Shown piece by piece: positions 1 through 45,924 of a DNA stretch of 64,000 bases. The stretch spans positions 3,050-67,049 of the forward strand of contig CANQSF010000011.1 in the NCBI GenBank assembly GCA_947626345.1. Direction: 5' to 3'. The notes beneath the pieces were generated by a model, which searched no databases, was not told the origin of the DNA, and worked only from the letters and a program-made list of their open reading frames with translations. Origin of the DNA: an uncultured Oscillospiraceae bacterium. Its GTDB lineage: Bacteria > Bacillota > Clostridia > Oscillospirales > Oscillospiraceae. Made by a program: the position numbers and the translations under genes. Every line of letters begins with the position of its first letter. The first letter of the stretch is position 1.

Positions 1-31
1 ATCTTTGAGAGTGTGTATGTTTTGTACTTGA

Positions 32-516
32 CTTTGTACAAATCGTACATTATCCTGGAATAATAAGGGAGGCACCGGAAAACTACTTTAGCGTTTCAAA
101 TCATATGTGATTATGCCCACAGAAACCCGGACAAAAAACTGTTGGCCATTGATGTTTGTCCTCAGGCCAATCTTTCAGAACTTTTGCTCGGTGGTTTAAA
201 CCAAGGCGGCAGCGATAATCTTCTAAAAAGGCAAGGGACTACGCCAAGGGCTACTATTGGAGGTTATTTCCAACTGAGACTTCCATCACCATATAGCCCT
301 CCGGTATTCACTGCCGCTGACTTTATATCAACCCCGGCATATTATAATCCCTACATACCGCAAAATGTCGACTTAGTATGCGGCGACCTATTGTTAGAAC
401 TACAGGCAAATGCTATTTCGACACTGGCAAACAACCAGATTCCCGGCACGAATACATGGCTTGCACAAGTAATAGTTTGCGTAAATATCGCTGTGCGCCT
501 GTATGCAAACCCTTGA
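32..516 (+). pseudogene. ParA/Soj-like P-loop ATPase remnant (frameshifted, probably 3' truncated)
   Basis: The frame of 32-82 reads ..LSWNNKGGTGK. The frame of 67-516 continues KTTLAFQI..LLAIDVCPQANLSELLLGG. A deviant Walker A, KGGTGKTT, is therefore split by a 1-nt shift inside the A4 run at 79-82. There is no ATG start and the product ends after about 150 aa. The region is visibly AT-richer than the rest of the window. Confidence 0.5.
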
Positions 517-563
517 AAACAGGGACTTTTTCAAAAAATACTATAACGACACTCGCACCAAAA

Positions 564-598
564 AGCAGAGGACAGCTTTTGCTGTCCTCTGCTTTTTG
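564..598 (+). terminator. Rho-independent terminator (bidirectional shape)
   Basis: Perfect 13-bp stem AGCAGAGGACAGC/GCTGTCCTCTGCT with a TTTT loop. It is followed by T5 and preceded by A4. Confidence 0.7.
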
Positions 599-650
599 AT
601 ATGGACACAGGACCAGCGGCATCCGGGGCATCTCCCGGGTGGGGTTTTTG

Positions 651-679
651 TTGACAAATCGGCGTGAGGCGACTACAAT
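651..679 (+). promoter_or_regulatory. Sigma-70-type promoter of the peptide genes
   Basis: TTGACA (651-656), 17 nt spacer, TACAAT (674-679). A GGAGGG RBS lies about 8 nt before ATG 740. Confidence 0.6.
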
Positions 680-739
680 TTAATTGGTCGAATCAAACGC
701 GGGAGGGGATACGGCCCGCGAGGATCGGAGGGAAAGCGC

Positions 740-934
740 ATGAACGAAGAACTGAACGAAAAAAAGCTGGAGACCGTCACGGGCGGGATAGATGTCCCTT
801 CCTATCCGCCCGTCAAGTGCCGCTGCGTGAAGTGCGGCAGAGAGTATATGATACGGGAAGATATAAACCTGACTAAGCTCCATTGCCCAGTAACAAGCTG
901 CTGCGGGACTTTGGTCAAAGTGAGGGACGAATGA
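740..934 (+). CDS. Small Cys-rich peptide precursor with double-glycine leader
   Basis: 64 aa. MNEELNEKKLETVTGG fits the LSxxELxxIxGG leader: V at -4, L at -7, L at -12, GG at -2/-1. The 48-aa core has 6 Cys arranged CxCxxC ... CxxxxCC, a zinc-ribbon-like spacing. The locus has its own promoter and RBS and a terminator shared with the next gene. Confidence 0.6.
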   Translation: MNEELNEKKLETVTGGIDVPSYPPVKCRCVKCGREYMIREDINLTKLHCPVTSCCGTLVKVRDE

Positions 935-935
935 G

Positions 936-1201
936 ATGAACGAGGAGAAGAAAGATCTGCCGGGGATGACCCTGAACAGGAGAAAGACCTGGAAAAGGTG
1001 ACCGGCGGGCTGGAGGGGATCGAGGAATACATGGAGGTCCAGGCGTTTCGCGAGGCCTTTATCAAGGCCAACTGCAGCCACTGCGCGAAACGCGGCACGG
1101 ATGACTGCACCTATCCGGATGACAATTATGCGGATGCGAAGGGCATGTATTACATGTTCAGGAACCGTCCGTGGGGATGCCCCTTCATCATCCCCAAGTG
1201 A
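936..1201 (+). pseudogene. Second double-glycine-leader Cys-rich peptide gene, interrupted by a 1-nt frameshift
   Basis: ATG 936 opens MNEEKKDLPG.., the same MNEE start as gene 1, but stops at 999-1001. The other frame, open from 935, reads ..DDPEQEKDLEKVTGG|LEGIEEYMEVQ..NCSHC..DC..GCPFIIPK to the stop at 1199-1201. One extra G in the G4 run at 962-965 would fuse the two frames into an 88-aa precursor. The GTG-998 ORF of the track would start inside the leader. Confidence 0.45.
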
Positions 1202-1257
1202 CCCTGTTCGGTCAGACCGTGAACGACGTGCCGGACTGCCCGGCAGGGGAAAACAAA

Positions 1258-1305
1258 GACCATCGGCAGACGCGAGCGCGCCTGCCGATGGTTTTGTGCT
1301 TTTTG
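1258..1305. terminator. Bidirectional terminator between convergent genes
   Basis: Stem CCATCGGCAG/CTGCCGATGG with a GC-rich loop. TTTTGTGCTTTTT follows on plus, and a T-rich tract (GTCTTTGTTTTCCCC) follows on minus. Confidence 0.6.
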
Positions 1306-4357: not shown

Positions 4358-4582
4358 TCAGTCGCCGGGGTTGGGGCGGATGACCTTCCGGAAGTTCCAG
4401 ATCCTCGCCACGGCCTGGGCGGCCTGCCGGCGTTCCTCCTCGTTTTTGTATGACAGCTCTGCCGTGTGGGCGCCGCAGTCCAGGCACTGGACGTATACGC
4501 ACCAGCCGCCCTCCTCCTCGATGCACCCTGTGCCGCCGCAGTTGGGGCAGTCCAGCAGCTCCAGCTCGTCTAAGGGATCCAT
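4358..4582 (-). CDS. Lar-family-like small zinc-ribbon protein
   Basis: 74 aa. The pattern CPNCGG..(n)..C..CG...AVARIWNFRK matches the Lar restriction-alleviation family (CPFCGG ... C..CG ... WN.R). An extended -10 promoter (TGcTATAAT) lies upstream. Confidence 0.55.
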   Translation of the reverse strand: MDPLDELELLDCPNCGGTGCIEEEGGWCVYVQCLDCGAHTAELSYKNEEERRQAAQAVARIWNFRKVIRPNPGD

Positions 4583-15531: not shown

Positions 15532-17127
15532 ATGAAAAAATATCTGCGAGCCAACGGCGCCCGTTACGCGGGGGCCCTGGTCTTTATACTCCTCAGCACG
15601 GCCTTCGCGGTGGTGCTGCAGTTTTTCAAGGGCGATGTGCTGGACTACGCCATCGCCGGGGAGGCGGCCGCGACGGCGCGGTACGCGCTGCTGCTGATCG
15701 GGTCCATCCTGGGGGAGGTGCTGTTTTATTACGGCTACCGGCGCATGAGCGACCGGTTCGCCGTGGGGTGCCTGAAGATGCTCAAGCGGGACATCTTCGC
15801 GGGCATCCTCCGGCTGGACTGGGCCGCCTATCAGACCCAGCAGCAGGGAGCGCTGGTGGCGAAATACAGCGCCGAGGCCGACACGATCCGCGCCCGCTGG
15901 TTTCAGATGCTGCCCCTGTTCTGGGAGATCGTGCTGAAGATCGTCTTCGTCAGCGCCGCCCTGTTCGCTCTGGACTGGCGGATCGCCCTCGTCACCATCC
16001 TGCTTCTGACCACACCGCTGTACGTCCCCAAGCTCATCGAAAAACGCCTGCAGCGGGCCACGGACGCCTACTTCCAGGCGGTGGAGGAGGATCTGGCCCG
16101 GGTGAACGACTGGCTGCGGGGCTTTGAGATCATCAAGAACTTCTCCGTCGAGGGGCAGATCCTCGCCCGGTTCGACAGCTCCAACAGCCAGGTCATGGAC
16201 AGGCTCCTGCGGGACACCAGCCTGGGGGCGGCGGCGCAGCTGATCACCACGCTGATCTCCTATCTGTCATATTTCATCGTGCTGGCCGCGGCCGCGTGGC
16301 TGGTGCTGGCAGGGGAGTTCTCGGCGGGGGACTTTTTCGTCGCCATCGGCATGATCGACCAGCTGTCCTATCCCCTCATCTCCCTGGCGGAGACCATCCG
16401 CCAGCTCATCGCCATCCGGCCGACCTGCGCGTCGATGGAACGGTTCATCGGCCAGGGGGCCGGCGACGGGGCGGAAAAGCCCCTTCTCCGGGTGGAGAGG
16501 GCCATCCGCTATGAGCACGTCACCTTCGGCTATACCGCCGACCGGCCGCTCCTGCGCCGGTTCGACTTCACGGCGGAGATGGGCAAAAAGTATCTGATCA
16601 AGGGGCCCAGCGGCTGCGGCAAGACCACCGCCGTCGATCTGCTCCTGCGCTATCACGACGTGACGGACGGCCGGATCACGGTGGACGGGGCGCCCCTGGA
16701 GGCGTATGATGCCACCTACGGGGCCGTCACCGTGGTGCGCCAGGAGGCGGTCCTGTTCCGGGACACGCTGCGCAGCAACCTGACCATGTACCGGGACATA
16801 GACGACGAAAGGCTCATAGAGGTGCTGAAAAAGGTGGGCCTGGAGCGGTTCGCCCACCGGAAGGCCCTGGACGGGCTCATCACGGAAAACGGCGCCAATC
16901 TCTCCGGCGGGGAGAAAAAGCGCATCTGTCTGGCCCGGGCGCTGCTGCGGGACACAGACGTGCTGATCCTGGACGAGCCGCTGGCCAATCTGGACGAGGA
17001 CACCGCGGGCCTGATCGAGCAGCTGCTGCTCGCCATCGACGGGAAGCTGCTGGTCGTGTCCCACCAGTTCACTCCGGAGCGGGTGGCCGCCTTCGACGGG
17101 GTGGTGGACCTGGGCCGGGAGAGATAG
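15532..17127 (+). CDS. ABC exporter, fused permease and ATPase
   Basis: 531 aa. N-terminal 6-TM domain, Walker A GPSGCGKTT, signature LSGGEKKR, Walker B VLILDEP. No N-terminal C39 peptidase domain. Confidence 0.9.
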   Translation: MKKYLRANGARYAGALVFILLSTAFAVVLQFFKGDVLDYAIAGEAAATARYALLLIGSILGEVLFYYGYRRMSDRFAVGCLKMLKRDIFAGILRLDWAAYQTQQQGALVAKYSAEADTIRARWFQMLPLFWEIVLKIVFVSAALFALDWRIALVTILLLTTPLYVPKLIEKRLQRATDAYFQAVEEDLARVNDWLRGFEIIKNFSVEGQILARFDSSNSQVMDRLLRDTSLGAAAQLITTLISYLSYFIVLAAAAWLVLAGEFSAGDFFVAIGMIDQLSYPLISLAETIRQLIAIRPTCASMERFIGQGAGDGAEKPLLRVERAIRYEHVTFGYTADRPLLRRFDFTAEMGKKYLIKGPSGCGKTTAVDLLLRYHDVTDGRITVDGAPLEAYDATYGAVTVVRQEAVLFRDTLRSNLTMYRDIDDERLIEVLKKVGLERFAHRKALDGLITENGANLSGGEKKRICLARALLRDTDVLILDEPLANLDEDTAGLIEQLLLAIDGKLLVVSHQFTPERVAAFDGVVDLGRER

Positions 17128-17142
17128 ACATCATACAAAATG

Positions 17143-17179
17143 CAGCACAGAGAGCATCTCTGCTCTCTGTGCTGTTTTG
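17143..17179 (+). terminator. Rho-independent terminator
   Basis: Stem CAGCACAGAGAG/CTCTCTGTGCTG followed by TTTT. Confidence 0.75.
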
Positions 17180-17225
17180 CTCCGGGCGCTGCGAAGCGAT
17201 CATCGTGGCATTTTCTCGAAAGCTC

Positions 17226-17273
17226 TTGACAAGAAAACTTGTCAGCGCTATAATGACGACAAGAAAACTTGGC
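17226..17273 (+). promoter_or_regulatory. Consensus promoter with two repeated operator-like sites
   Basis: TTGACA (17226-17231), 17 nt spacer, TATAAT (17249-17254). The perfect palindrome GACAAGAAAACTTGTC (17228-17243) overlaps the -35 and spacer. A second copy, GACAAGAAAACTTGGC, lies at 17258-17273, exactly 30 bp downstream. Confidence 0.65.
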
Positions 17274-17287
17274 GCAGAGACGGTCAT

Positions 17288-17617
17288 ATGAAAAAAGAGG
17301 AGATCTTGAAAGCGAGCCGCCAGGAGAATAAAAACAGGGATCTGGCCGAGATGGAGGTCATGTGTCAGGCGGGGACCTGCGCGGGGCGCGTGGGCGCGTT
17401 GGTGTGCTGCGTCGTTTCGCTGCTGTCTTCCACGCTTGCGCATACCATGCTCTATAGTCCGTGGGCGATATACTTCAGCATCATGACGACACAGTGGTCG
17501 GTCTGTTTCATCAGGATGCGGCGCGGGAGCGATCTGGTGTTGGCGGTCCTGTTTCTGATCCTTGCCGTTTTGGCTTTCGTGGGACTGATCGAGCGCCTCA
17601 TGAAGGTGAGAGCATGA
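17288..17617 (+). CDS. Small membrane protein (DUF6442-like) partnered with an XRE regulator
   Basis: Start MKKEEILKASRQENKNRDLAE, followed by 2-3 TM helices. Its stop overlaps the next ATG (ATGA). Confidence 0.65.
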   Translation: MKKEEILKASRQENKNRDLAEMEVMCQAGTCAGRVGALVCCVVSLLSSTLAHTMLYSPWAIYFSIMTTQWSVCFIRMRRGSDLVLAVLFLILAVLAFVGLIERLMKVRA

Positions 17618-17820
17618 ACGAAGGGCTGAAGCTGAAAAACCGGCTGAAGCAGGCGCGCACGGAAAAGGGGATGTCGCAGGCCCAGCTGGCGGAATTGGTG
17701 GGCGTATCGAGAAATACCATCAGCTCCATCGAAACGGGACAGTTCAATCCCACCGCCAAGCTGGCCCTGGTGCTCTGCATCGCGCTGGACAGGAAATTTG
17801 AAGAGCTGTTTTACTTCTGA
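17614..17820 (+). CDS. XRE-family helix-turn-helix transcriptional regulator
   Basis: 68 aa. The HTH is LKQARTEKGMSQAQLAELVGVSRNTISSIETGQFNP. Confidence 0.9.
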   Translation: MNEGLKLKNRLKQARTEKGMSQAQLAELVGVSRNTISSIETGQFNPTAKLALVLCIALDRKFEELFYF

Positions 17821-29593: not shown

Positions 29594-29627
29594 ATCGTCG
29601 GAGCAAAGCGGACTTTGCTCCGACGAT
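29594..29627. other. Perfect 15-bp hairpin between convergent genes (weak terminator candidate)
   Basis: ATCGTCGGAGCAAAG-CGGA-CTTTGCTCCGACGAT. There is no strong T tract on either side. Confidence 0.4.
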
Positions 29628-29711
29628 GGTGCGGGTGTTCTTACAGCATTTTTTGAAAAAGTCCCAATTATCAAGGGATGCAGGCAGGCGCACAGCGATA
29701 TTTACCGATCG

Positions 29712-30481: not shown

Positions 30482-30564
30482 TGGTGCGGGTAACAGGATT
30501 TGAACCTGCACGGTCGCCCACGGGAACCTAAATCCCGCGTGTCTGCCAATTCCACCATACCCGC
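30482..30564 (-). tRNA. tRNA-Leu(UAG): tRNA-Leu (anticodon UAG), type II with long variable arm, CCA encoded
   Basis: The minus strand reads GCGGGTA TG GTG GAATTGGCAGA CAC G CGGGA TTTAGGT TCCCG TGGGCGACCGTGC AGG.. TTCAAAT ..CCTGT TACCCGC A CCA. Acceptor, anticodon and T stems all pair. 83 nt. Confidence 0.9.
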
Positions 30565-40947: not shown

Positions 40948-41787
40948 ATGATCGAACTGGACGAAAAAGCGATAGCGGGGTTCCGGGAAAAGCTGGCGGA
41001 GGACGAGGCGGCGGGGGCCACGGTGGCCAAGTACACGGTCGCCATCCGCCGCCTGGCGGCATTCTGCGGCGGACAATTGCGGGACAAGGGGCAGTTAGTC
41101 GCCTTTAAGCAAGCCCTGGCGGCCTCCGGCATGGCCCCGGGCACCGTGAACGGGGTGCTGACGGCGGTGAATAAACTGCTGGATATCTATGGATACCATG
41201 AATGGCGCTTGCGCTTCCTCAAGGTGCAGCGCCGAGTTTTCATGGCTCCGGGGCGGGAGATGACCCGCGCGGAGTATGAAAGGCTGGTGAATACGGCGAA
41301 GCGGCAGGGCGACGAGCGCCTGGCGCTGGCGGTGCAGACATTGGGGGCCACGGGAGCGCGGGTCAGCGAGCTGCAGGCGGTCACGGTGGAGGCCGTGGCG
41401 GCCGGAAAAGCGGAAATTCGCTCCAAAGGAAAGATCAGATTGCTGCTTTTGCCGAAGAAACTCTGCAAACTGCTGGCCAATTACTGCGCGAAACGGAACA
41501 TCACCGCCGGGCCGGTGTTCGTCACCGCGTCGGGAAAGCCTATCGACCGGAGCAACCTCTGGAAGAGCATGAAGCGGCTGGCGAAGCACGCCCGGGTATT
41601 ATTAGATAAGGTATTTCCCCACAACCTGCGGCATTTGTTCGCCCGCACGTATTACAAAAAGACCCGGGACATCGTGCAGCTGGCGGACATCCTGGGCCAC
41701 TGCAGCGTGGAGACCACGCGCATCTACACCGCACGATCGCCCATGGAGCAGCGGCGGCAGATGGACGCGCTGGCGCTTTTGCTATAA
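40948..41787 (+). CDS. Tyrosine recombinase (XerC/D-integrase family), catalytic residues intact
   Basis: 279 aa from MIELDEK with a GGAGGGG RBS. Catalytic residues: Arg in ATGARVSEL, Lys in SKGKIR, HNLRH (H-x-x-R), GHCSVETTRIY (His, Tyr). Confidence 0.85.
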   Translation: MIELDEKAIAGFREKLAEDEAAGATVAKYTVAIRRLAAFCGGQLRDKGQLVAFKQALAASGMAPGTVNGVLTAVNKLLDIYGYHEWRLRFLKVQRRVFMAPGREMTRAEYERLVNTAKRQGDERLALAVQTLGATGARVSELQAVTVEAVAAGKAEIRSKGKIRLLLLPKKLCKLLANYCAKRNITAGPVFVTASGKPIDRSNLWKSMKRLAKHARVLLDKVFPHNLRHLFARTYYKKTRDIVQLADILGHCSVETTRIYTARSPMEQRRQMDALALLL

Positions 41788-41821
41788 AAAAAGATACCAC
41801 AGAATTCACATTCTGTGGTAT
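41786..41821 (-). terminator. Minus-strand-only intrinsic terminator formed by IR-L
   Basis: The minus strand reads ATACCACAGAA-TGTGAA-TTCTGTGGTAT followed by CTTTTTTT. On the plus strand no T tract follows the hairpin. Confidence 0.6.
41796..41819. repeat. Inverted repeat, left copy (IR-L)
   Basis: ACCACAGAATTCACATTCTGTGGT. It matches the reverse complement of 42049-42072 at 22/24. Confidence 0.75.
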
Positions 41822-41864
41822 GTACACGGAAATTACTTCCTCCGAGCCCAGCTTTACGAGGATG

Positions 41865-41893
41865 ATTATAGCCCGCTTCCCTTAAAAAAGCAA
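41865..41893 (-). promoter_or_regulatory. Near-consensus promoter inside the IR-bounded segment, facing away from the surface-protein gene
   Basis: Minus strand TTGCTT (41893-41888), 17 nt spacer, TATAAT (41870-41865). An A/T-rich UP-like tract (GTAAAAAAATAAACTTTTTTTGAA) lies just upstream. Confidence 0.6.
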
Positions 41894-42048
41894 GGGGAAA
41901 TTCAAAAAAAGTTTATTTTTTTACATAACAACTCCGCCTGAGGCCCTTTTGCCCGGCCCCAGGCGCCCTTTCCGTGCGCTTTTCACAGTTTTTTGCCCCC
42001 GTTTTCTCCCTTCCGGCCAAAAACTTGGGCGTCTTCCCCGCCGCACGC

Positions 42049-42072
42049 ACCACAGATTGTGAATTCTATGGT
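42049..42072. repeat. Inverted repeat, right copy (IR-R)
   Basis: ACCACAGATTGTGAATTCTATGGT. Its centre TGTGAA is the reverse complement of the IR-L centre TTCACA. Confidence 0.75.
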
Positions 42073-42115
42073 GAGAAGGGCTCGAAAAACTATTTTATTA
42101 GGAGGACATCAAACA

Positions 42116-44998
42116 ATGACAAAACGTGTACTCAGCTTGCTCTTGGCGCTGATCATGGCTCTGTCTCTGTGCGTCCCGGCCTTCGCGGCTGACGAGCCTG
42201 AAGTCATCGAAGAAGAGCCTGCTACCATCGAGGCTGAGGGCGAAGAGGCCGCGCCTGTGGCGGCCGATGAGCCGGAGGCGATCGCTGTCGATGAGCCTGA
42301 GGTCGTCGACCTGCTCAACGAAGATTCCCTGCAGGGCATGGTCAACCAGGCCAACGGCATGAAGGCCGGCATCATTGCCGGTTGGTATCAGAAGGGTACT
42401 GACGCTGACTGGCCTTCTGGCGTCACGACCGATGAACAGCTCATGACCTACTTCCTGGATCAGCTGGAAGCGTCTGAGAAAATCCTGGGCGAGATCAAGG
42501 ACAAGGGCGGCTATGACACCTGGCTGCTCAGCGGTGGGACTCGCGACCGGTATGAAAATGCTATGAAGGGCCTGGCTGCTGCCATCAGAGCGGTGACGAA
42601 GTATGTCCGCGAAGATACCTACAGGAAGCAGATCAGCGAGATGAACGGCTGGATCAAGTGGTACCAGTACGTCATCAATGAGAACAAGACCGCGTCCTAT
42701 GGCAAGGACACTTGCGATGTCCAGCCCTGGTTCGAGACCGAGGTGAAGGAGGCTGTGGCCTTCCTGCGGTCCCTGGCCGGCTATAACGAGGACTATGACG
42801 AGCTGTGGCTGCCTGGCGCTGCGTCCATCCTGTACAAGGACTATCTGGCTGCTAAGGCTACCTTCACCAAGCTGTACGGTGAGTTCGATGATGCGATCCT
42901 CGCCGAGTATACCGACTACGTGGAGCTGCGGGACGCCATCCGCGACGCCAAGGCCAAGCTGGCCAGCGACGGCTACTTCGACGGTGCGACTTATTTCTGG
43001 CCGACGAAGGTCGACGGTTGGTGCGATTCTCTCAGCGCGTTCCTGGACTTCCTGCTCAGGGATATAGCTACTGGCGCTGGCACGACCGGCTTCAAGGACG
43101 CTAACCAGACGCTGAAGAGTGTCCACTATTACCTGACTGTGATCAAGGCTTTCCTGAAGGAGAACAAGCACACCCTGAGCCTCAGTCAGTTCTACATCAA
43201 CACCGACTTCAAGAGCGTTTCTGTGCGTGTCGTGCAGTCTAGCGGTGACAAGTATAAGAGCGATAACCGTTATTATCACCTGGAAGTCAGCGCTGTCAAG
43301 ACTGTAAAGGGCCATCCCTTCACCGCTGCTGAGTTGGCGGATTGGCGTGAAGAAGATATAGGCCTGGGCGGCAATACTAAGAATGGTATTTTTGAAATGG
43401 ACGTCAGCCCCGATCAGCTTGGCATCAAGGATGACCAGGGCAAGCTGAAGGACGGCGCCGTCATCACCGTGAAGTTTATCTGCGACAAGGGCCACGAGGT
43501 CCTCGCCACAAAGACTATCACCGTTGATCAGAGCTACAACGGCCCCGTGATCGTCGATTCCGAGTACGATCCCGACGACATCGTCATCAAGCTGGACAAG
43601 AGCTTGGCTGCTGCTTCCCAGGCGCACACTACGGATCCTGACAACAACCAGTACAGCCAGGCTACCCTGACCCTGAGCTACAACGGCACCGTCGTGGAGA
43701 CCAAGACGATCAATGCCAACAATGACCTTTGGAAGAACGTGTTCAAGTTCAACCTGACCGACCTGTGGCACATGGAGATCGGTGAGTACACCGTCGAGTT
43801 GAAGGTCACCCAGGGCCAGCCCAGCGGCGGCGACCATAGCACCATCTCCCGCGGCACCGTGACGGTCACCGTCCCCGACATCACCGCCTATCAGGGCGAC
43901 GAGGTCGAGGCTGACGAGGACGACGTTTGGGGTCTGGCCGGCGCCAAGGGCTTCAACAACCTGCAGAAGGCCATCAGCCTGGCCAACTCTGACGACAAGT
44001 ACGCCAAGAGCGGCGACACCGCGAAGCTGAAGGCGCAGCTGGCTGCCAACGTGGCCGAGGCCCAGGCTTTCGTGGACAAGGCCGCCACCACCCCCCTCTC
44101 CAAGGCCAACAAGGCCAAGGTCGACGAGCTGATCGCCGCCATCTACGGCATCCTGAAGAATTTCGACGTGGCTGCTGACACCTCCGCGCTGACCGCTGCC
44201 ATCGCCGCCGGCGAGGCTCTGGTCCCCTCCGACTATGACGGCGCCAACGCTTGGAAGACCCTGCAGGACGCCATCACCGCCGGCAAGGACCTGATGAAGA
44301 AGGCCCCCATGGCTGCTACCGCTGCCAACAAGGCTGCCATCGCCGCCGCCGCTGAGGCCATCGAGGACGCTATCGATGATCTGAACGAGCATCATGCTGT
44401 GGTGCCTTACAACGAGCTGAAGGCCCTGGAAGAGCTGATCGACTCCGTTCCCACCCGTCTGGCCGCTGACGACTTCTCCGCTGCGAGCAAGGCTGCTGTC
44501 AATGCCGCCGTTGCCGCCGCGAAGCCTCTGCTGGACAAGACTGGCGTGACCAAGTCCGAGCTGCAGGCCGCCATCGACGCGGTGCAGGCTGCCCTGAACA
44601 ACCTGACCACCGTGAAGAGTGACGCTGCCCCCACGGCTCCCTCCGCCGATTACACCGGCTGGGCCACCGCTGAGAATGGCGACTACTACTACTTCAAGAA
44701 CGGCTCCCTGGTCAAGGCTGACTGGGTCAAGTCCAAGGGTCTGTGGTACCACATGGGCGCCACCGGCAAGATGGACACCGGCTTCATCCACATCGTGGAT
44801 AGCTGGGGCGACGCCTACTACTACCTGAACCCCAGCAACACCAAGGGCACCATGGGCCGCATGTTCACTGGCTGGAAGATGATCAACGATTCCTCCGCCG
44901 GCGCTTGGGGCTGGTTCGAGACCCGTAACAACGGCCATCAGGGCCAGTGCACCTACACCACCAACTGGGGCGACTTCAAGAACTACAAGCCCTTCTAA
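42116..44998 (+). CDS. Large secreted surface protein with C-terminal cell-wall-binding (CW_binding_1-type) repeats
   Basis: Start MTKRVLSLLLALIMALSLCVPAFA|AD (signal peptide) with an AGGAGG RBS. 960 aa. It has Ala-rich FIVAR-like helical modules (..TSALTAAIAAGEALVPSDYDGANAWKTLQDAI..). C-terminal GW/YYY repeats are present (GWATAENGDYYYFKNGSLVKADW.., GDAYYYLNP..GRMFTGWKMI). Confidence 0.85.
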   Translation: MTKRVLSLLLALIMALSLCVPAFAADEPEVIEEEPATIEAEGEEAAPVAADEPEAIAVDEPEVVDLLNEDSLQGMVNQANGMKAGIIAGWYQKGTDADWPSGVTTDEQLMTYFLDQLEASEKILGEIKDKGGYDTWLLSGGTRDRYENAMKGLAAAIRAVTKYVREDTYRKQISEMNGWIKWYQYVINENKTASYGKDTCDVQPWFETEVKEAVAFLRSLAGYNEDYDELWLPGAASILYKDYLAAKATFTKLYGEFDDAILAEYTDYVELRDAIRDAKAKLASDGYFDGATYFWPTKVDGWCDSLSAFLDFLLRDIATGAGTTGFKDANQTLKSVHYYLTVIKAFLKENKHTLSLSQFYINTDFKSVSVRVVQSSGDKYKSDNRYYHLEVSAVKTVKGHPFTAAELADWREEDIGLGGNTKNGIFEMDVSPDQLGIKDDQGKLKDGAVITVKFICDKGHEVLATKTITVDQSYNGPVIVDSEYDPDDIVIKLDKSLAAASQAHTTDPDNNQYSQATLTLSYNGTVVETKTINANNDLWKNVFKFNLTDLWHMEIGEYTVELKVTQGQPSGGDHSTISRGTVTVTVPDITAYQGDEVEADEDDVWGLAGAKGFNNLQKAISLANSDDKYAKSGDTAKLKAQLAANVAEAQAFVDKAATTPLSKANKAKVDELIAAIYGILKNFDVAADTSALTAAIAAGEALVPSDYDGANAWKTLQDAITAGKDLMKKAPMAATAANKAAIAAAAEAIEDAIDDLNEHHAVVPYNELKALEELIDSVPTRLAADDFSAASKAAVNAAVAAAKPLLDKTGVTKSELQAAIDAVQAALNNLTTVKSDAAPTAPSADYTGWATAENGDYYYFKNGSLVKADWVKSKGLWYHMGATGKMDTGFIHIVDSWGDAYYYLNPSNTKGTMGRMFTGWKMINDSSAGAWGWFETRNNGHQGQCTYTTNWGDFKNYKPF

Positions 44999-45019
44999 GC
45001 AAGTTCTGAATCGCGATCT

Positions 45020-45050
45020 GGGAGCAGGGTCTCTGGCCCTGCTCCCTTTC
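45020..45050 (+). terminator. Terminator-like hairpin
   Basis: Stem GGGAGCAGGG/CCCTGCTCCC followed by TTTCC (short T tract). Confidence 0.5.
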
Positions 45051-45069
45051 CAAAAAGGGGGGAAATGCC

Positions 45070-45912
45070 GTGGATACGCTGGAACTGAGGCCGAGACAGC
45101 AGACGCGCGCCCGTGACGCCGGCGTCGCCATGACCGAGGCGGACAGCGAGCGCTTCCTCGCGGACCTGGCGGTCAAAGGCCGCGCGCCCGAGACTGTGGA
45201 GCGGTATCGCCGCAGTTTGGAGCACCTGGCCGAGGTCCTGCCCGAGGACCGGAAGATCAGGCGCGGCACGCTGGAACAGTGCCGCGAGGCGCTGCTGGCC
45301 GCGGGCTATGCGCCCCGGACGGTGAATCTGGTGCTGTCCGTGGCGAATACATACGTGGCGTATATGGGCCATCGGGAGTATCAGCTGGGCGACACGCTGG
45401 AGACTGAGGCGAAGCTGCATCCCGAGCTGACGCGGTCCGAATACCGGCATCTCCTTCAAGTCGCGAAGCTGCTGGGGCGGGAGAAGGTCTACCTGCTCGT
45501 CAAGCTCTTCGCCAGCGCCGACATGCCCGTCCAGGAGCTGGATAAGGTCACCGTCGAGGCCGTGACCGCCGGGCAGGTGACGGTGGGCGAGGGCAATTCC
45601 CGCCGCAATATCCGCCTGCCGGGCTGTGTGCGGAAGGAGCTGCTGGCCTTCGCCGAGCGGCAGGGCATCTATCGCGGGCCGCTGTTTTTGACGAAGGACG
45701 GCACGCCTATGAGCCGCACGTACGTGACCAGCGCCATCCGCAACCTCTGCGCGGTGGCGAAGGTGCCGGTGGAGAAGGGCAATCCCCGCTGCCTCCGGCG
45801 GCTGTATCTTTCTGGCCGCAAGGCCATCGAGGACAACATCGCGCTCCTTGTGGAGCAAGCCCTCGAGCGCCAGCTGGACGAGGAACAGCTCACCGTCGGC
45901 TGGGACGTGTGA
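45070..45912 (+). CDS. Tyrosine-recombinase-like paralog lacking catalytic residues
   Basis: 280 aa. GTG start with a GGGGGG RBS; an alternative ATG lies at 45130. It aligns with the 40948 recombinase (ELTRSEYRHLLQVAK vs EMTRAEYERLVNTAK; VTVEAVTAGQVTV vs VTVEAVAAGKAEI). However, box I is ASADMPVQEL (Arg lost), box II is PRCLRRL (both His lost), and no C-terminal His/Tyr segment is present. Confidence 0.7.
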   Translation: MDTLELRPRQQTRARDAGVAMTEADSERFLADLAVKGRAPETVERYRRSLEHLAEVLPEDRKIRRGTLEQCREALLAAGYAPRTVNLVLSVANTYVAYMGHREYQLGDTLETEAKLHPELTRSEYRHLLQVAKLLGREKVYLLVKLFASADMPVQELDKVTVEAVTAGQVTVGEGNSRRNIRLPGCVRKELLAFAERQGIYRGPLFLTKDGTPMSRTYVTSAIRNLCAVAKVPVEKGNPRCLRRLYLSGRKAIEDNIALLVEQALERQLDEEQLTVGWDV

Positions 45913-45924
45913 GGCTGCGGGCAA

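What the first reader, a model, noticed from the sequence alone, without database searches (positions are those of the whole stretch)
651..1305. Orphan, strongly promoted tandem genes for double-glycine-leader, Cys-rich peptides
A TTGACA-17-TACAAT promoter, good RBSs and a shared terminator frame two small genes. Their N-termini are paralogous: MNEELNEKKLETVTGG and MNEEKKDL..EKDLEKVTGG. Both fit the double-glycine secretion leader of class II bacteriocins, lanthipeptides and pheromones.

The cores are unrelated to each other and to anything I recognise. Core 1 (48 aa) has CxCxxC ... CxxxxCC, which looks like a zinc ribbon. Core 2 (63 aa) has CxxC ... C ... C. No C39-peptidase ABC exporter, modification enzyme or immunity gene is visible downstream. 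The locus abuts the window start and a decayed ParA-like gene in AT-richer DNA, which suggests a remnant or edge of a mobile or bacteriocin island.
Basis: partly seen in the sequence, partly recalled or inferred. Interest (0 to 1): 0.65.

Follow-up and report, generated by a model that had tools for sequence, protein, structure and literature searches.

The report
Orphan double-glycine-leader zinc-ribbon peptide genes
A rabbit-gut Oscillospiraceae chromosome carries a strongly promoted two-gene cassette for small peptides with a classic double-glycine export leader, one with a zinc-ribbon core and one broken by a frameshift here; they belong to a rare, undescribed family that sits beside leader-cleaving ABC exporters in related bacteria.

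Summary
**Observation.** Most of it holds:
- The promoter (651-679, 11/12 to consensus), both ribosome-binding sites, the terminator (1259-1292) and gene 1 (740-934, 64 aa) are real.
- Gene 2 is not intact. One G is missing after base 968, which separates its leader (936-1001) from its core (998-1201). Other strains carry an intact 88-aa allele.

**Interpretation.** The double-glycine-leader reading is well supported, though indirectly:
- GG, Leu-7, Leu-12 and Val-4 are conserved across 15 aligned relatives and the 21 paralogs of locus L037.
- The same leader precedes two unrelated cores.
- A sister-lineage genome (L032) places distant relatives of both core types beside two C39-peptidase ABC exporters of the NHLP type.

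**Core A.** It is a four-Cys zinc ribbon by profile, PDB and AlphaFold evidence. In two paralogs His replaces the fourth Cys.

**Context.** No exporter, modifying enzyme or immunity gene lies in about 62 kb of the 64-kb window or in the 9 kb upstream of it. The AT-rich ParA remnant belongs to a separate element inserted at tRNA-Pro, not to a bacteriocin island.

**Verdict.** This is an orphan, partly decayed cassette of an undescribed, very rare family of exported zinc-ribbon miniproteins. Export and biological activity are untested.

The parts
479..560 (+). Context only: conserved ~80-nt end of an integrated-element remnant, finishing in a degenerate copy of the tRNA-Pro 3' end (CACTCGCACCA, 550-560).
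   Evidence: Homologous to the tRNA-Pro 3' end plus flank in L016 and L003. The same module recurs at window 29627-29705 (-) and in L002 and L041.
565..597 (+). Terminator hairpin (stem 565-576/581-592, T-run 593-597). It follows tRNA-Pro in L016 and insulates the cassette from upstream transcription.
   Evidence: Sequence read; aligned to L016 9255-9292.
620..650 (+). Second terminator-like hairpin plus T-run immediately before the promoter.
   Evidence: stem 620-641, 9 pairs, tail GGGTTTTTGT.
651..679 (+). Sigma-70-type promoter TTGACA-17-TACAAT.
   Evidence: 11/12 matches; 7 sites found against 1.3 expected in the region. Conserved in L011 and L016.
727..732 (+). Ribosome-binding site GGAGGG of gene 1, 7 nt before the ATG.
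   Evidence: The 5' UTR fold is unremarkable and does not sequester it.
740..787 (+). Gene 1 leader MNEELNEKKLETVTGG, with Leu-12, Leu-7, Val-4 and Gly-2/Gly-1.
   Evidence: TIGR01847 residues 3-16, 16.0 bits against a cut-off of 15.7. Family conservation.
788..934 (+). Gene 1 core: 48 aa, zinc-ribbon type A, with invariant Cys29, Cys32, Cys49 and Cys54, followed by the stop codon.
   Evidence: Identical protein on 22 contigs. pN/pS 0.44-0.55.
922..927 (+). Ribosome-binding site GAGGGA of gene 2, lying inside the 3' end of gene 1.
936..1001 (+). Gene 2 leader fragment, a 21-aa ORF ending at an out-of-frame TGA. The 1-nt deletion lies after base 968.
   Evidence: the intact alleles read ATGGAC or ATGGGC where the window reads ATGAC.
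998..1201 (+). Gene 2 core frame (VTGG + 63-aa type B core with CxxC-x7-C...C). It is uncoupled from its start codon, so it is a pseudogene in this strain.
   Evidence: The intact 88-aa orthologs have pN/pS 0.24-0.53.
1259..1305 (+). Bidirectional intrinsic terminator: 15-bp stem at 1259-1292, then TTTTGTGCTTTTT.
   Evidence: invariant stem in 10 assemblies.

Best explanation
The locus is a small constitutive-looking operon of precursor peptides. They carry a double-glycine leader and are cargo for a peptidase-containing ABC exporter (PCAT) encoded elsewhere in the genome.

**Proposed mechanism**
- The exporter's C39 domain would bind the leader helix through Leu-12, Leu-7 and Val-4.
- It would cut after Gly16 and export the core.
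- In this strain only peptide A is made. Its 48-aa core is a hydrophilic four-Cys zinc-ribbon miniprotein, not a pore-forming amphipathic peptide.
- Peptide B, a 63-aa helical four-Cys core, is inactivated by a frameshift in its leader.

**Likely role.** Inter-bacterial antagonism (bacteriocin-like) or signalling among gut Oscillospiraceae.

**What is shown**
- The gene structure and the signs of purifying selection.
- The leader features.
- The zinc-ribbon homology.
- The linkage of distant relatives to PCATs.

**What is inferred**
- Cleavage, export and metal binding.
- Biological activity.
- The presence of an exporter in this genome.
For: **Leader**
- TIGR01847 scores above its curated cut-off.
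- GG is invariant, and Leu-12, Leu-7 and a hydrophobic -4 residue are conserved in 15 aligned relatives and in the 21 L037 paralogs.
- These are the residues that PCAT1 and LahT recognise (PMC6959990; PMC6363468).
- The same leader sits on two unrelated cores. This fits a transporter that reads only the leader.

**Linkage to exporters**
- L032 comes from a lineage whose FtsH gene is 92.5% identical to that of L016.
- It has a type-B-like 81-aa gene, two type-A-like genes, a PAP2 gene and a HlyD-like gene.
- Next to these is a 724-aa exporter that hits TIGR03796 at 930 bits against a cut-off of 853, plus a second exporter set.

**Array behaviour typical of bacteriocin cassettes**
- Copy number is 2, 4, 4 and 21 in different genomes.
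- The A+B pair is 95-96% identical between species whose flanking genes are 80-91% identical.

**Coding and expression**
- pN/pS is 0.24-0.55.
- The promoter is near-consensus and conserved.
- An RNA-seq contig covers 743-945.

**Zinc ribbon**
- Profile hits to Rpo12/RpoP (E = 1e-4) and S27e.
- AlphaFold gives three strands, with core pLDDT 75-82.
- Structure-search top hits are all zinc modules.
- Two paralogs have Cys-x3-His in place of the second knuckle, which argues for a metal ligand over a disulfide.
Against: - No C39 exporter lies in about 62 kb of the window, in 9.2 kb upstream, or next to the array in L011 and L016. Whether this genome has one could not be tested.
- Gene 1 has Lys, not Glu, at position -8. 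The type B leader of this species has Glu at -12.
- The TIGR01847 score is only marginally above its cut-off, and PF10439 is below its own.
- The cores are hydrophilic, with pI 5-8.4, unlike characterised class II bacteriocins.
- No immunity gene is adjacent.
- PCAT cargo appears to be unstructured during transport, so a zinc ribbon would have to fold after export.
- The RNA evidence is one low-depth contig from a close relative and could be DNA carry-over.
- The frameshift in gene 2 suggests relaxed selection on the locus in this strain.
Confidence: 0.65

Rival explanations
1. The peptides are RiPP precursors (sactipeptide, ranthipeptide or lanthipeptide type). Their Cys-rich cores would be modified by enzymes encoded elsewhere before double-glycine cleavage.
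For: - The cores are Cys-rich and carry a double-glycine leader.
- Orphan precursors far from their enzymes are known for prochlorosins (my own knowledge).
- In L031 a SPASM-domain fragment lies convergently about 1.8 kb from a single type A gene.
Against: - No radical-SAM, LanM/LanB/LanC or YcaO gene is adjacent in any context: the window, L001-L005, L011, L016, L032, L035, L037.
- The invariant Cys residues form CxxCG...CxxC knuckles homologous to structural zinc ribbons.
- His substitutes for Cys in two paralogs.
- In L031 a NADAR-Macro gene separates the SPASM gene from the peptide gene.
Confidence: 0.1
2. The products are intracellular small zinc-ribbon proteins. The acidic N-terminus ending in GG would be a family-specific tail or hinge, not a secretion leader.
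For: - Zinc ribbons are typically cytoplasmic, and the core's nearest relatives are intracellular DUF4379/CapR repeats and RNA polymerase or ribosomal ribbons.
- No exporter is nearby.
- The cores are hydrophilic.
Against: - The N-terminus matches the bacteriocin leader model and its recognition residues.
- The same N-terminus is fused to an unrelated core B.
- Relatives are embedded between PCAT genes in L032.
- A 21-gene hypervariable array is hard to explain for a housekeeping intracellular protein.
Confidence: 0.12
3. The cassette is a decaying, functionless relic. The genes are left over from a lost bacteriocin cluster and are transcribed, but their products are not exported.
For: - Gene 2 is frameshifted in 5 of 10 assemblies.
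- Copy number is lower (2) than in sister species (4).
- No exporter or immunity gene was found.
- The locus lies at a tRNA-Pro insertion hotspot.
Against: - Gene 1 is identical on 22 contigs and keeps its frame.
- The promoter and ribosome-binding site are intact and conserved.
- pN/pS is below 1.
- The cassette is more conserved between species than its flanking genes.
Confidence: 0.13

Closest known systems
Double-glycine-leader class II bacteriocin and pheromone precursors exported by PCATs (ComC/ComA, BlpAB, LagD, PCAT1-CtA)
   Same: - Short acidic leader ending in GG, with Leu-12, Leu-7 and a hydrophobic -4 residue.
- Several tandem precursor genes under one promoter.
- Cargo length (48-63 aa) is within the range of CtA, which has a 66-aa cargo.
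- Relatives lie beside C39 ABC exporters.
   Different: - The cores have no similarity to any Pfam or NCBIfam bacteriocin family.
- Core A is a zinc ribbon.
- The cores are hydrophilic and nearly neutral.
- There is no adjacent exporter, immunity gene or regulator in this window.
NHLP/Nif11 bacteriocin systems (TIGR03796/TIGR03797/TIGR03794 export set)
   Same: - The exporters next to the L032 relatives are of this type.
- Cleavage is at a GG motif.
- Multiple diverse precursors share one leader.
   Different: - NHLP and Nif11 leaders are long domains of roughly 70-80 aa (my own knowledge). Here the leader is 16-25 aa and only resembles the last ~17 residues of a Nif11 leader (PDB 9zn4, E = 0.1).
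- No modifying enzyme is present.
Prochlorosin-type precursor libraries (many ProcA genes scattered through a genome, one processing and export machinery)
   Same: - Conserved leader with hypervariable cores.
- Orphan precursor genes far from the machinery.
- Large paralog numbers, as in the 21-gene array of L037.
   Different: - No LanM was found.
- The cores keep a fixed zinc-ribbon scaffold and are not free-form Cys/Ser/Thr patterns.
- Gut Clostridia, not marine cyanobacteria.
Small zinc-ribbon and treble-clef modules (Rpo12/RpoP, ribosomal S27e, DUF4379/CapR repeats)
   Same: - CxxCG...CxxC knuckles about 16-20 residues apart.
- Predicted three-stranded sheet.
- Significant profile similarity.
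   Different: Those are intracellular domains without a leader. Here the ribbon is a stand-alone 48-aa core behind a secretion-type leader.

Membership tests
Double-glycine-leader PCAT cargo | Gly-Gly (or GA/GS) at positions -2/-1 | tested here: met
   VTGG in gene 1 and in the gene 2 core frame. GG is invariant in 15 aligned relatives and 21 L037 paralogs.
Double-glycine-leader PCAT cargo | Hydrophobic residues at -7 and -12 (the 'hydrophobic knot') and at -4 | tested here: met
   Gene 1 has Leu-12, Leu-7 and Val-4. Gene 2 of this species has Leu-7 and Val-4 but Glu at -12; its relatives P0005 and the L032 81-aa peptide have Leu or Met at -12. Criterion taken from PMC6959990 and PMC6363468.
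Double-glycine-leader PCAT cargo | Glu at -8 (ComA-type consensus L-x3-E-L) | tested here: not met
   Gene 1 has Lys-8 and gene 2 has Asp-8. Many relatives (P0022, P0080, all L037 paralogs) have Glu-8. This is a consensus feature, not a universal one.
Double-glycine-leader PCAT cargo | Leader HMM score above the curated cut-off | tested here: inconclusive
   TIGR01847 scores 16.0 against 15.7, so it is met only marginally. PF10439 scores 12.6 against 27.1 and ComC 11.5 against 20.4, so neither is met. No model hit the read-through gene 2 product.
Double-glycine-leader PCAT cargo | C39-peptidase ABC exporter in the same cluster | tested here: not met
   None in about 62 kb of the window, in 9.2 kb upstream, or next to L011 and L016. 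It is met for the distant relatives in L032.
Double-glycine-leader PCAT cargo | C39 exporter somewhere in the same genome | not testable with these tools
Double-glycine-leader PCAT cargo | Cleavage after GG and export of the core | not testable with these tools
   This needs biochemistry or peptidomics.
Zinc ribbon (core A) | Two Cys knuckles, CxxC(G) and CxxC / Cx4C, 16-20 residues apart | tested here: met
   Cys29, Cys32, Cys49 and Cys54 are invariant or nearly so.
Zinc ribbon (core A) | Sequence or profile similarity to solved zinc ribbons | tested here: met
   Rpo12 E = 1e-4, RpoP 2.4e-4, Rpb12 and S27e. Repeat proteins with DUF4379/CapR domains were recovered by the profile.
Zinc ribbon (core A) | Three-stranded beta fold | tested here: inconclusive
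   AlphaFold gives strands at 25-29, 35-38 and 57-61, with mean pLDDT 67 and core 75-82. Foldseek top hits are all zinc modules, but E is at least 0.1.
Zinc ribbon (core A) | Metal binding | not testable with these tools
   The only indirect support is that two L037 paralogs replace the fourth Cys with His.
RiPP precursor (sacti-, ranthi- or lanthipeptide) | Tailoring enzyme (radical SAM/SPASM, LanM, LanBC) encoded with the precursor | tested here: not met
   Absent in every context with flanks. The only trace is a SPASM fragment about 1.8 kb away in L031.
Class IIb two-peptide bacteriocin | Two cationic amphiphilic peptides with GxxxG motifs plus an adjacent immunity gene | tested here: not met
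   The cores are hydrophilic (GRAVY -0.16 and -0.62; charge +1.8 and -2.2) with no GxxxG motif (sequence). There is no immunity candidate, and type B occurs alone in L041.
NHLP/Nif11 precursor | Long leader homologous to nitrile hydratase alpha or Nif11 | tested here: not met
   The leader is 16-25 aa and gets no NHLP or Nif11 family hit.

The most novel reading that the evidence does not exclude
Core A may represent a previously unrecognised class of secreted, metal-stabilised zinc-ribbon miniproteins.
- They would be exported by NHLP-type peptidase ABC transporters.
- They would diversify as tandem libraries of 2 to at least 21 paralogs, each with a fixed leader, a fixed Cys4 (or Cys3His) scaffold and a hypervariable N-terminal arm and loop.
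- They would be exchanged between gut Oscillospiraceae species.
- In the L032 cluster an undecaprenyl-diphosphatase-like PAP2 protein lies between the precursor genes. If it acts as an immunity protein, the target could lie in the lipid-carrier cycle of cell-wall synthesis.
Probability: 0.2. Interest if true: 0.8.

Novelty: new variant of a known kind. Interest (0 to 1): 0.5.

Why it matters
Double-glycine leaders and PCAT exporters are well understood. Described cargo, however, is almost entirely short amphipathic bacteriocins, pheromones or RiPPs.

**If the family is exported as predicted**
- A family whose cargo is a folded zinc-ribbon scaffold, diversified in arrays of up to 21 genes, would widen what these exporters are known to deliver.
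- It would also give a compact, naturally variable scaffold for studying competition among hard-to-culture gut Clostridia.

**For annotation**
- The case shows that precursor genes can sit tens of kilobases or more from any exporter, where context-based mining tools miss them.
- One member of such a pair can be silently broken.

**Caveat.** The family is extremely rare. The word-index searches found 6 type A clusters and 3 type B clusters among 5.8 billion, mostly from rabbit gut. Its ecological reach may therefore be narrow.

Tried and rejected
- **Family libraries.** Pfam, NCBIfam, PADLOC and PHROGs gave no core family, defence or phage assignment for either peptide.
- **Rfam.** A scan of 1-1500 gave only sub-threshold noise.
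- **5' UTR riboregulator.** The fold is not better than shuffled sequence (z = -0.48), so I rejected this idea.
- **Core B structure.** The AlphaFold model was too weak (pLDDT 57.5) for a fold search. A PDB profile search found nothing.
- **The 531-aa ABC exporter at 15532-17127.** I considered it as the missing transporter and rejected it. It has no C39 domain, and its best matches are MsbA and CydC-type exporters, all below cut-off.
- **Programmed frameshifting in gene 2.** Rejected, because intact alleles exist and the site is a simple 1-nt loss.
- **Obligate A+B two-peptide pairing.** Rejected, because type B occurs alone in L041 and type A alone in L031, L035 and L037.
- **Cassette as part of the AT-rich island.** Rejected, because L016 has tRNA-Pro, terminator, promoter and array with no insertion.
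- **Technical failures.**
  - The search for related loci with the broad alignment A4 failed for lack of a conserved stretch.
- **Literature.** Searches for zinc-ribbon bacteriocins or Cys-rich PCAT cargo found no description of such a family.
Full report
**1. What is in the sequence**

Positions 651-679 hold TTGACA-17-TACAAT, matching the consensus at 11 of 12 positions. Two terminator-like hairpins precede it, at 565-597 and 620-650.

Gene 1:
- It runs 740-934 and has a GGAGGG ribosome-binding site 7 nt upstream.
- It encodes MNEELNEKKLETVTGG followed by a 48-aa core with six Cys.

Gene 2:
- An ATG at 936 follows the gene 1 stop codon by one base and has its own ribosome-binding site (GAGGGA, 922-927).
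- This reading frame stops at 999-1001 after 21 codons.
- The frame that encodes VTGG and the 63-aa Cys-containing core opens only at GTG 998 and ends at 1201.
- Alignment with nine other assemblies shows that the window lacks one G after base 968. It reads ATGAC where other alleles read ATGGAC or ATGGGC.
- Five assemblies share this deletion and five encode an intact 88-aa protein.

A 15-bp hairpin at 1259-1292 with T-runs on both sides ends the operon and also the convergent DUF1295 gene. A simple leader motif matches only 1 of 268 small ORFs in the whole window, namely gene 1.

**2. Origin and surroundings**

The first 1400 bases are identical to a 74.6-kb rabbit-gut metagenome contig (L001), which supplies 9.2 kb of upstream sequence. 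The closest genome records are uncultured Oscillospiraceae MAGs from rabbit ('Lapin') gut, and the runs holding the sequence are rabbit gut metagenomes.

Pfam tables for contigs covering the window up to about 62 kb show ordinary chromosomal genes:
- patatin, pyruvate kinase, glycogen genes, an inositol catabolism cluster, a butyrate-pathway cluster, and ribosomal proteins;
- no Peptidase_C39, radical SAM or LanM gene.

The only ABC exporter of the right general type (15532-17127, 531 aa) has no peptidase domain. Upstream in L001 lie a PhdYeFM antitoxin, an MNT/HepT pair, a LysR regulator and aldo-keto reductases. In other strains the upstream DNA is pilin genes (L002) or glutamate synthase (L003).

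**3. The AT-rich flank is a separate insertion**

- In the sister species L016 the order is glutamate synthase, tRNA-Pro(GGG), terminator hairpin, the same promoter, then the peptide array.
- In strains L003 and L004 of the window species, about 1.25 kb is inserted between tRNA-Pro and that hairpin. It carries PhdYeFM and the ParA remnant.
- The insertion ends in a degenerate copy of the tRNA 3' end, CACTCGCACCA (window 550-560).
- The ParA-like ORF is N-terminally truncated and frameshifted in its Walker A motif. Read through, it passes the CbiA/ParA threshold.
- The cassette therefore lies on the chromosomal side of an integration hotspot and is not the edge of a bacteriocin island.

**4. 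The peptides belong to a small family**

Word-index searches of 5.8 billion protein clusters returned only six type A clusters and three type B clusters.

Array structure in sister species:

| Locus | Genes in order (aa) |
|---|---|
| L011 | 63-64-88-70 |
| L016 | 63-63-64-88 |

Both arrays sit behind the same promoter.

A full HMMER scan of 1.84 billion representatives gave 105 hits:
- The short hits have the same architecture, a leader ending in (V/A)xGG, a variable arm, then CxxCG...CxxC.
- The long hits are proteins built of DUF4379/CapR treble-clef zinc-finger repeats.

Contig L037 consists of 21 consecutive genes of this kind:
- Their leaders are nearly identical (NELNEQELEQxAGG).
- Their arms are hypervariable.
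- The core is conserved: YRCPKCGATKKV...CxNC.

**5. Leader**

Across 15 aligned relatives the invariant or nearly invariant positions are Leu-12, Leu-7, Val-4, Gly-2 and Gly-1 in the leader, and Cys29, Cys32, Gly33, Cys49 and Cys54 in the core.

- Leu-12 and Leu-7 form the hydrophobic knot recognised by the peptidase domains of PCAT1 and LahT. Position -4 tunes specificity. The transporter does not read the cargo (PMC6959990; PMC6363468).
- That explains how types A and B, which are similar only in the leader, can share one machinery.
- TIGR01847 scores 16.0 against a cut-off of 15.7 on gene 1.
- Departures from the consensus: Lys instead of Glu at -8 in gene 1, and Glu at -12 in the type B leader of this species.

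**6. Link to exporters**

L032 comes from a MAG whose FtsH gene is 92.5% identical in DNA to that of L016. Its genes run in this order:
- an 81-aa peptide whose leader and first CxxC region align to type B (hhalign probability 93%, E = 2.8e-7);
- a 67-aa type-A-like peptide;
- a 324-aa PAP2 membrane protein;
- an 82-aa type-A-like peptide;
- a short HlyD-like protein;
- a 724-aa exporter scoring 930 bits on TIGR03796 (cut-off 853);
- a TIGR03797-like partner.

A second HlyD-like/PCAT/ABC set lies 7 kb upstream in the same locus. This is the strongest evidence that both peptide types are PCAT cargo. It is evidence by association in a relative, not in this genome.

**7. Core A is a zinc ribbon**

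- The family profile hits RNA polymerase subunits Rpo12/RpoP (E = 1e-4 and 2.4e-4), Rpb12 and S27e.
- AlphaFold2 gives a disordered leader and three strands, with pLDDT 75-82 in the core.
- All top Foldseek matches are zinc modules (sirtuin, rubredoxin, MCM), although none is significant.
- Two L037 paralogs carry C-x3-H where the others have the second CxxC. This points to metal ligation over disulfides.
- Only four of the six Cys in the window's core A are conserved.

Core B is predicted helical at low confidence and has no detectable relatives beyond its own small family.

**8. Selection, exchange and expression**

- Orthologs give pN/pS of 0.24-0.55, from small counts.
- The A+B pair is 95-96% identical between species whose flanking genes are 80% (patatin) to 91% (glutamate synthase) identical. 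This points to recent exchange or strong constraint.
- A metatranscriptome run contains a 203-nt contig covering 743-945 at 97% identity and low depth. This is weak evidence for transcription of gene 1 in a close relative.

**9. Mechanism and rivals**

The best-supported reading (0.65) has these steps:
- The near-consensus promoter transcribes a short operon.
- Peptide A is made.
- A PCAT encoded elsewhere docks the leader, cuts after Gly16 and exports the 48-aa core.
- The core folds around zinc, or forms disulfides, outside the cell.
- Peptide B is not made in this strain.

The biological role, antagonism or signalling, is inferred only from the analogy and from the array behaviour. The hydrophilic, near-neutral cores argue against membrane permeabilisation.

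Rival readings:
- A RiPP precursor (0.10) has no enzyme support.
- An intracellular zinc-ribbon protein (0.12) does not explain the leader, its sharing between unrelated cores, or the PCAT linkage.
- A decaying relic (0.13) fits the frameshift and the missing exporter, but not the conservation of gene 1 and its promoter.

**10. Novelty**

No Pfam or NCBIfam family covers either core. Literature searches found no report of zinc-ribbon cargo for double-glycine exporters.

I class this as a new variant of a known kind. The export logic is familiar, while the cargo type and the array behaviour are new. The window's own copy is an orphan, half-broken representative, so I score its interest as moderate.

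Noticed in passing
L037:1-6026 (GCA_947600345.1, CANQGC010000171.1): A 6.5-kb contig made almost entirely of 21 tandem genes for double-glycine-leader zinc-ribbon peptides. The leaders are nearly identical and the N-terminal arms are hypervariable. Two paralogs have His in place of the fourth Cys and one looks degenerate. The array runs off the contig start, so it may be longer.
   Followed up: partly
L032:1-16400 (GCA_947626495.1, CANQSJ010000008.1): Two NHLP-type exporter sets (HlyD-like, C39 PCAT, second ABC) flank three leader peptides and a 324-aa PAP2 (undecaprenyl-diphosphatase-like) membrane protein. The PAP2 protein could be an immunity factor. The second ABC gene of one set appears split (587 + 144 aa).
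   Followed up: partly
window 1-560, and window 29627-29705 (-): An ~80-nt module (GTAAATATCGCTGTG...ACTATAACG + CAC[T/C]CGCACCA) ends two small insertions. One lies next to tRNA-Pro and carries PhdYeFM and a ParA remnant. The other lies about 0.85 kb from tRNA-Leu (30482-30564, -) and carries DUF4160/DUF2442. It also occurs in L002 and L041. This looks like the conserved end of a family of tRNA-targeting integrative elements or their remnants.
   Followed up: partly
window 740-1204, compared with L011 and L016: The two-gene cassette is 95-96% identical in DNA between species whose neighbouring chromosomal genes are only 80-91% identical. This suggests recent horizontal exchange of the cassette.
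   Followed up: partly
window 40949-45913 (from L023 and L024 gene tables): A 960-aa FIVAR-repeat surface protein is bracketed by two tyrosine-recombinase-like genes (Phage_integrase and Phage_int_SAM_1), next to infC-rpmI-rplT. It may be an invertible or mobile surface-protein module.
   Followed up: no
window 15532-17820 (approx.): A stand-alone 531-aa ABC exporter without a peptidase domain is followed by a DUF6442 protein and a 68-aa HTH regulator. I found no link to the peptide cassette.
   Followed up: partly
window 4358-4582 (-): A 74-aa Lar-type restriction-alleviation zinc-ribbon protein (PF14354) lies 3 kb downstream. It is an unrelated small Cys protein with no leader.
   Followed up: no
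L026:140-1406, also L027 and L028: A distant family member (P0022) is preceded by another small zinc-ribbon gene and followed by an HTH_3 regulator and a Spo0A_C-domain protein, in gut metagenomes from other studies.
   Followed up: no
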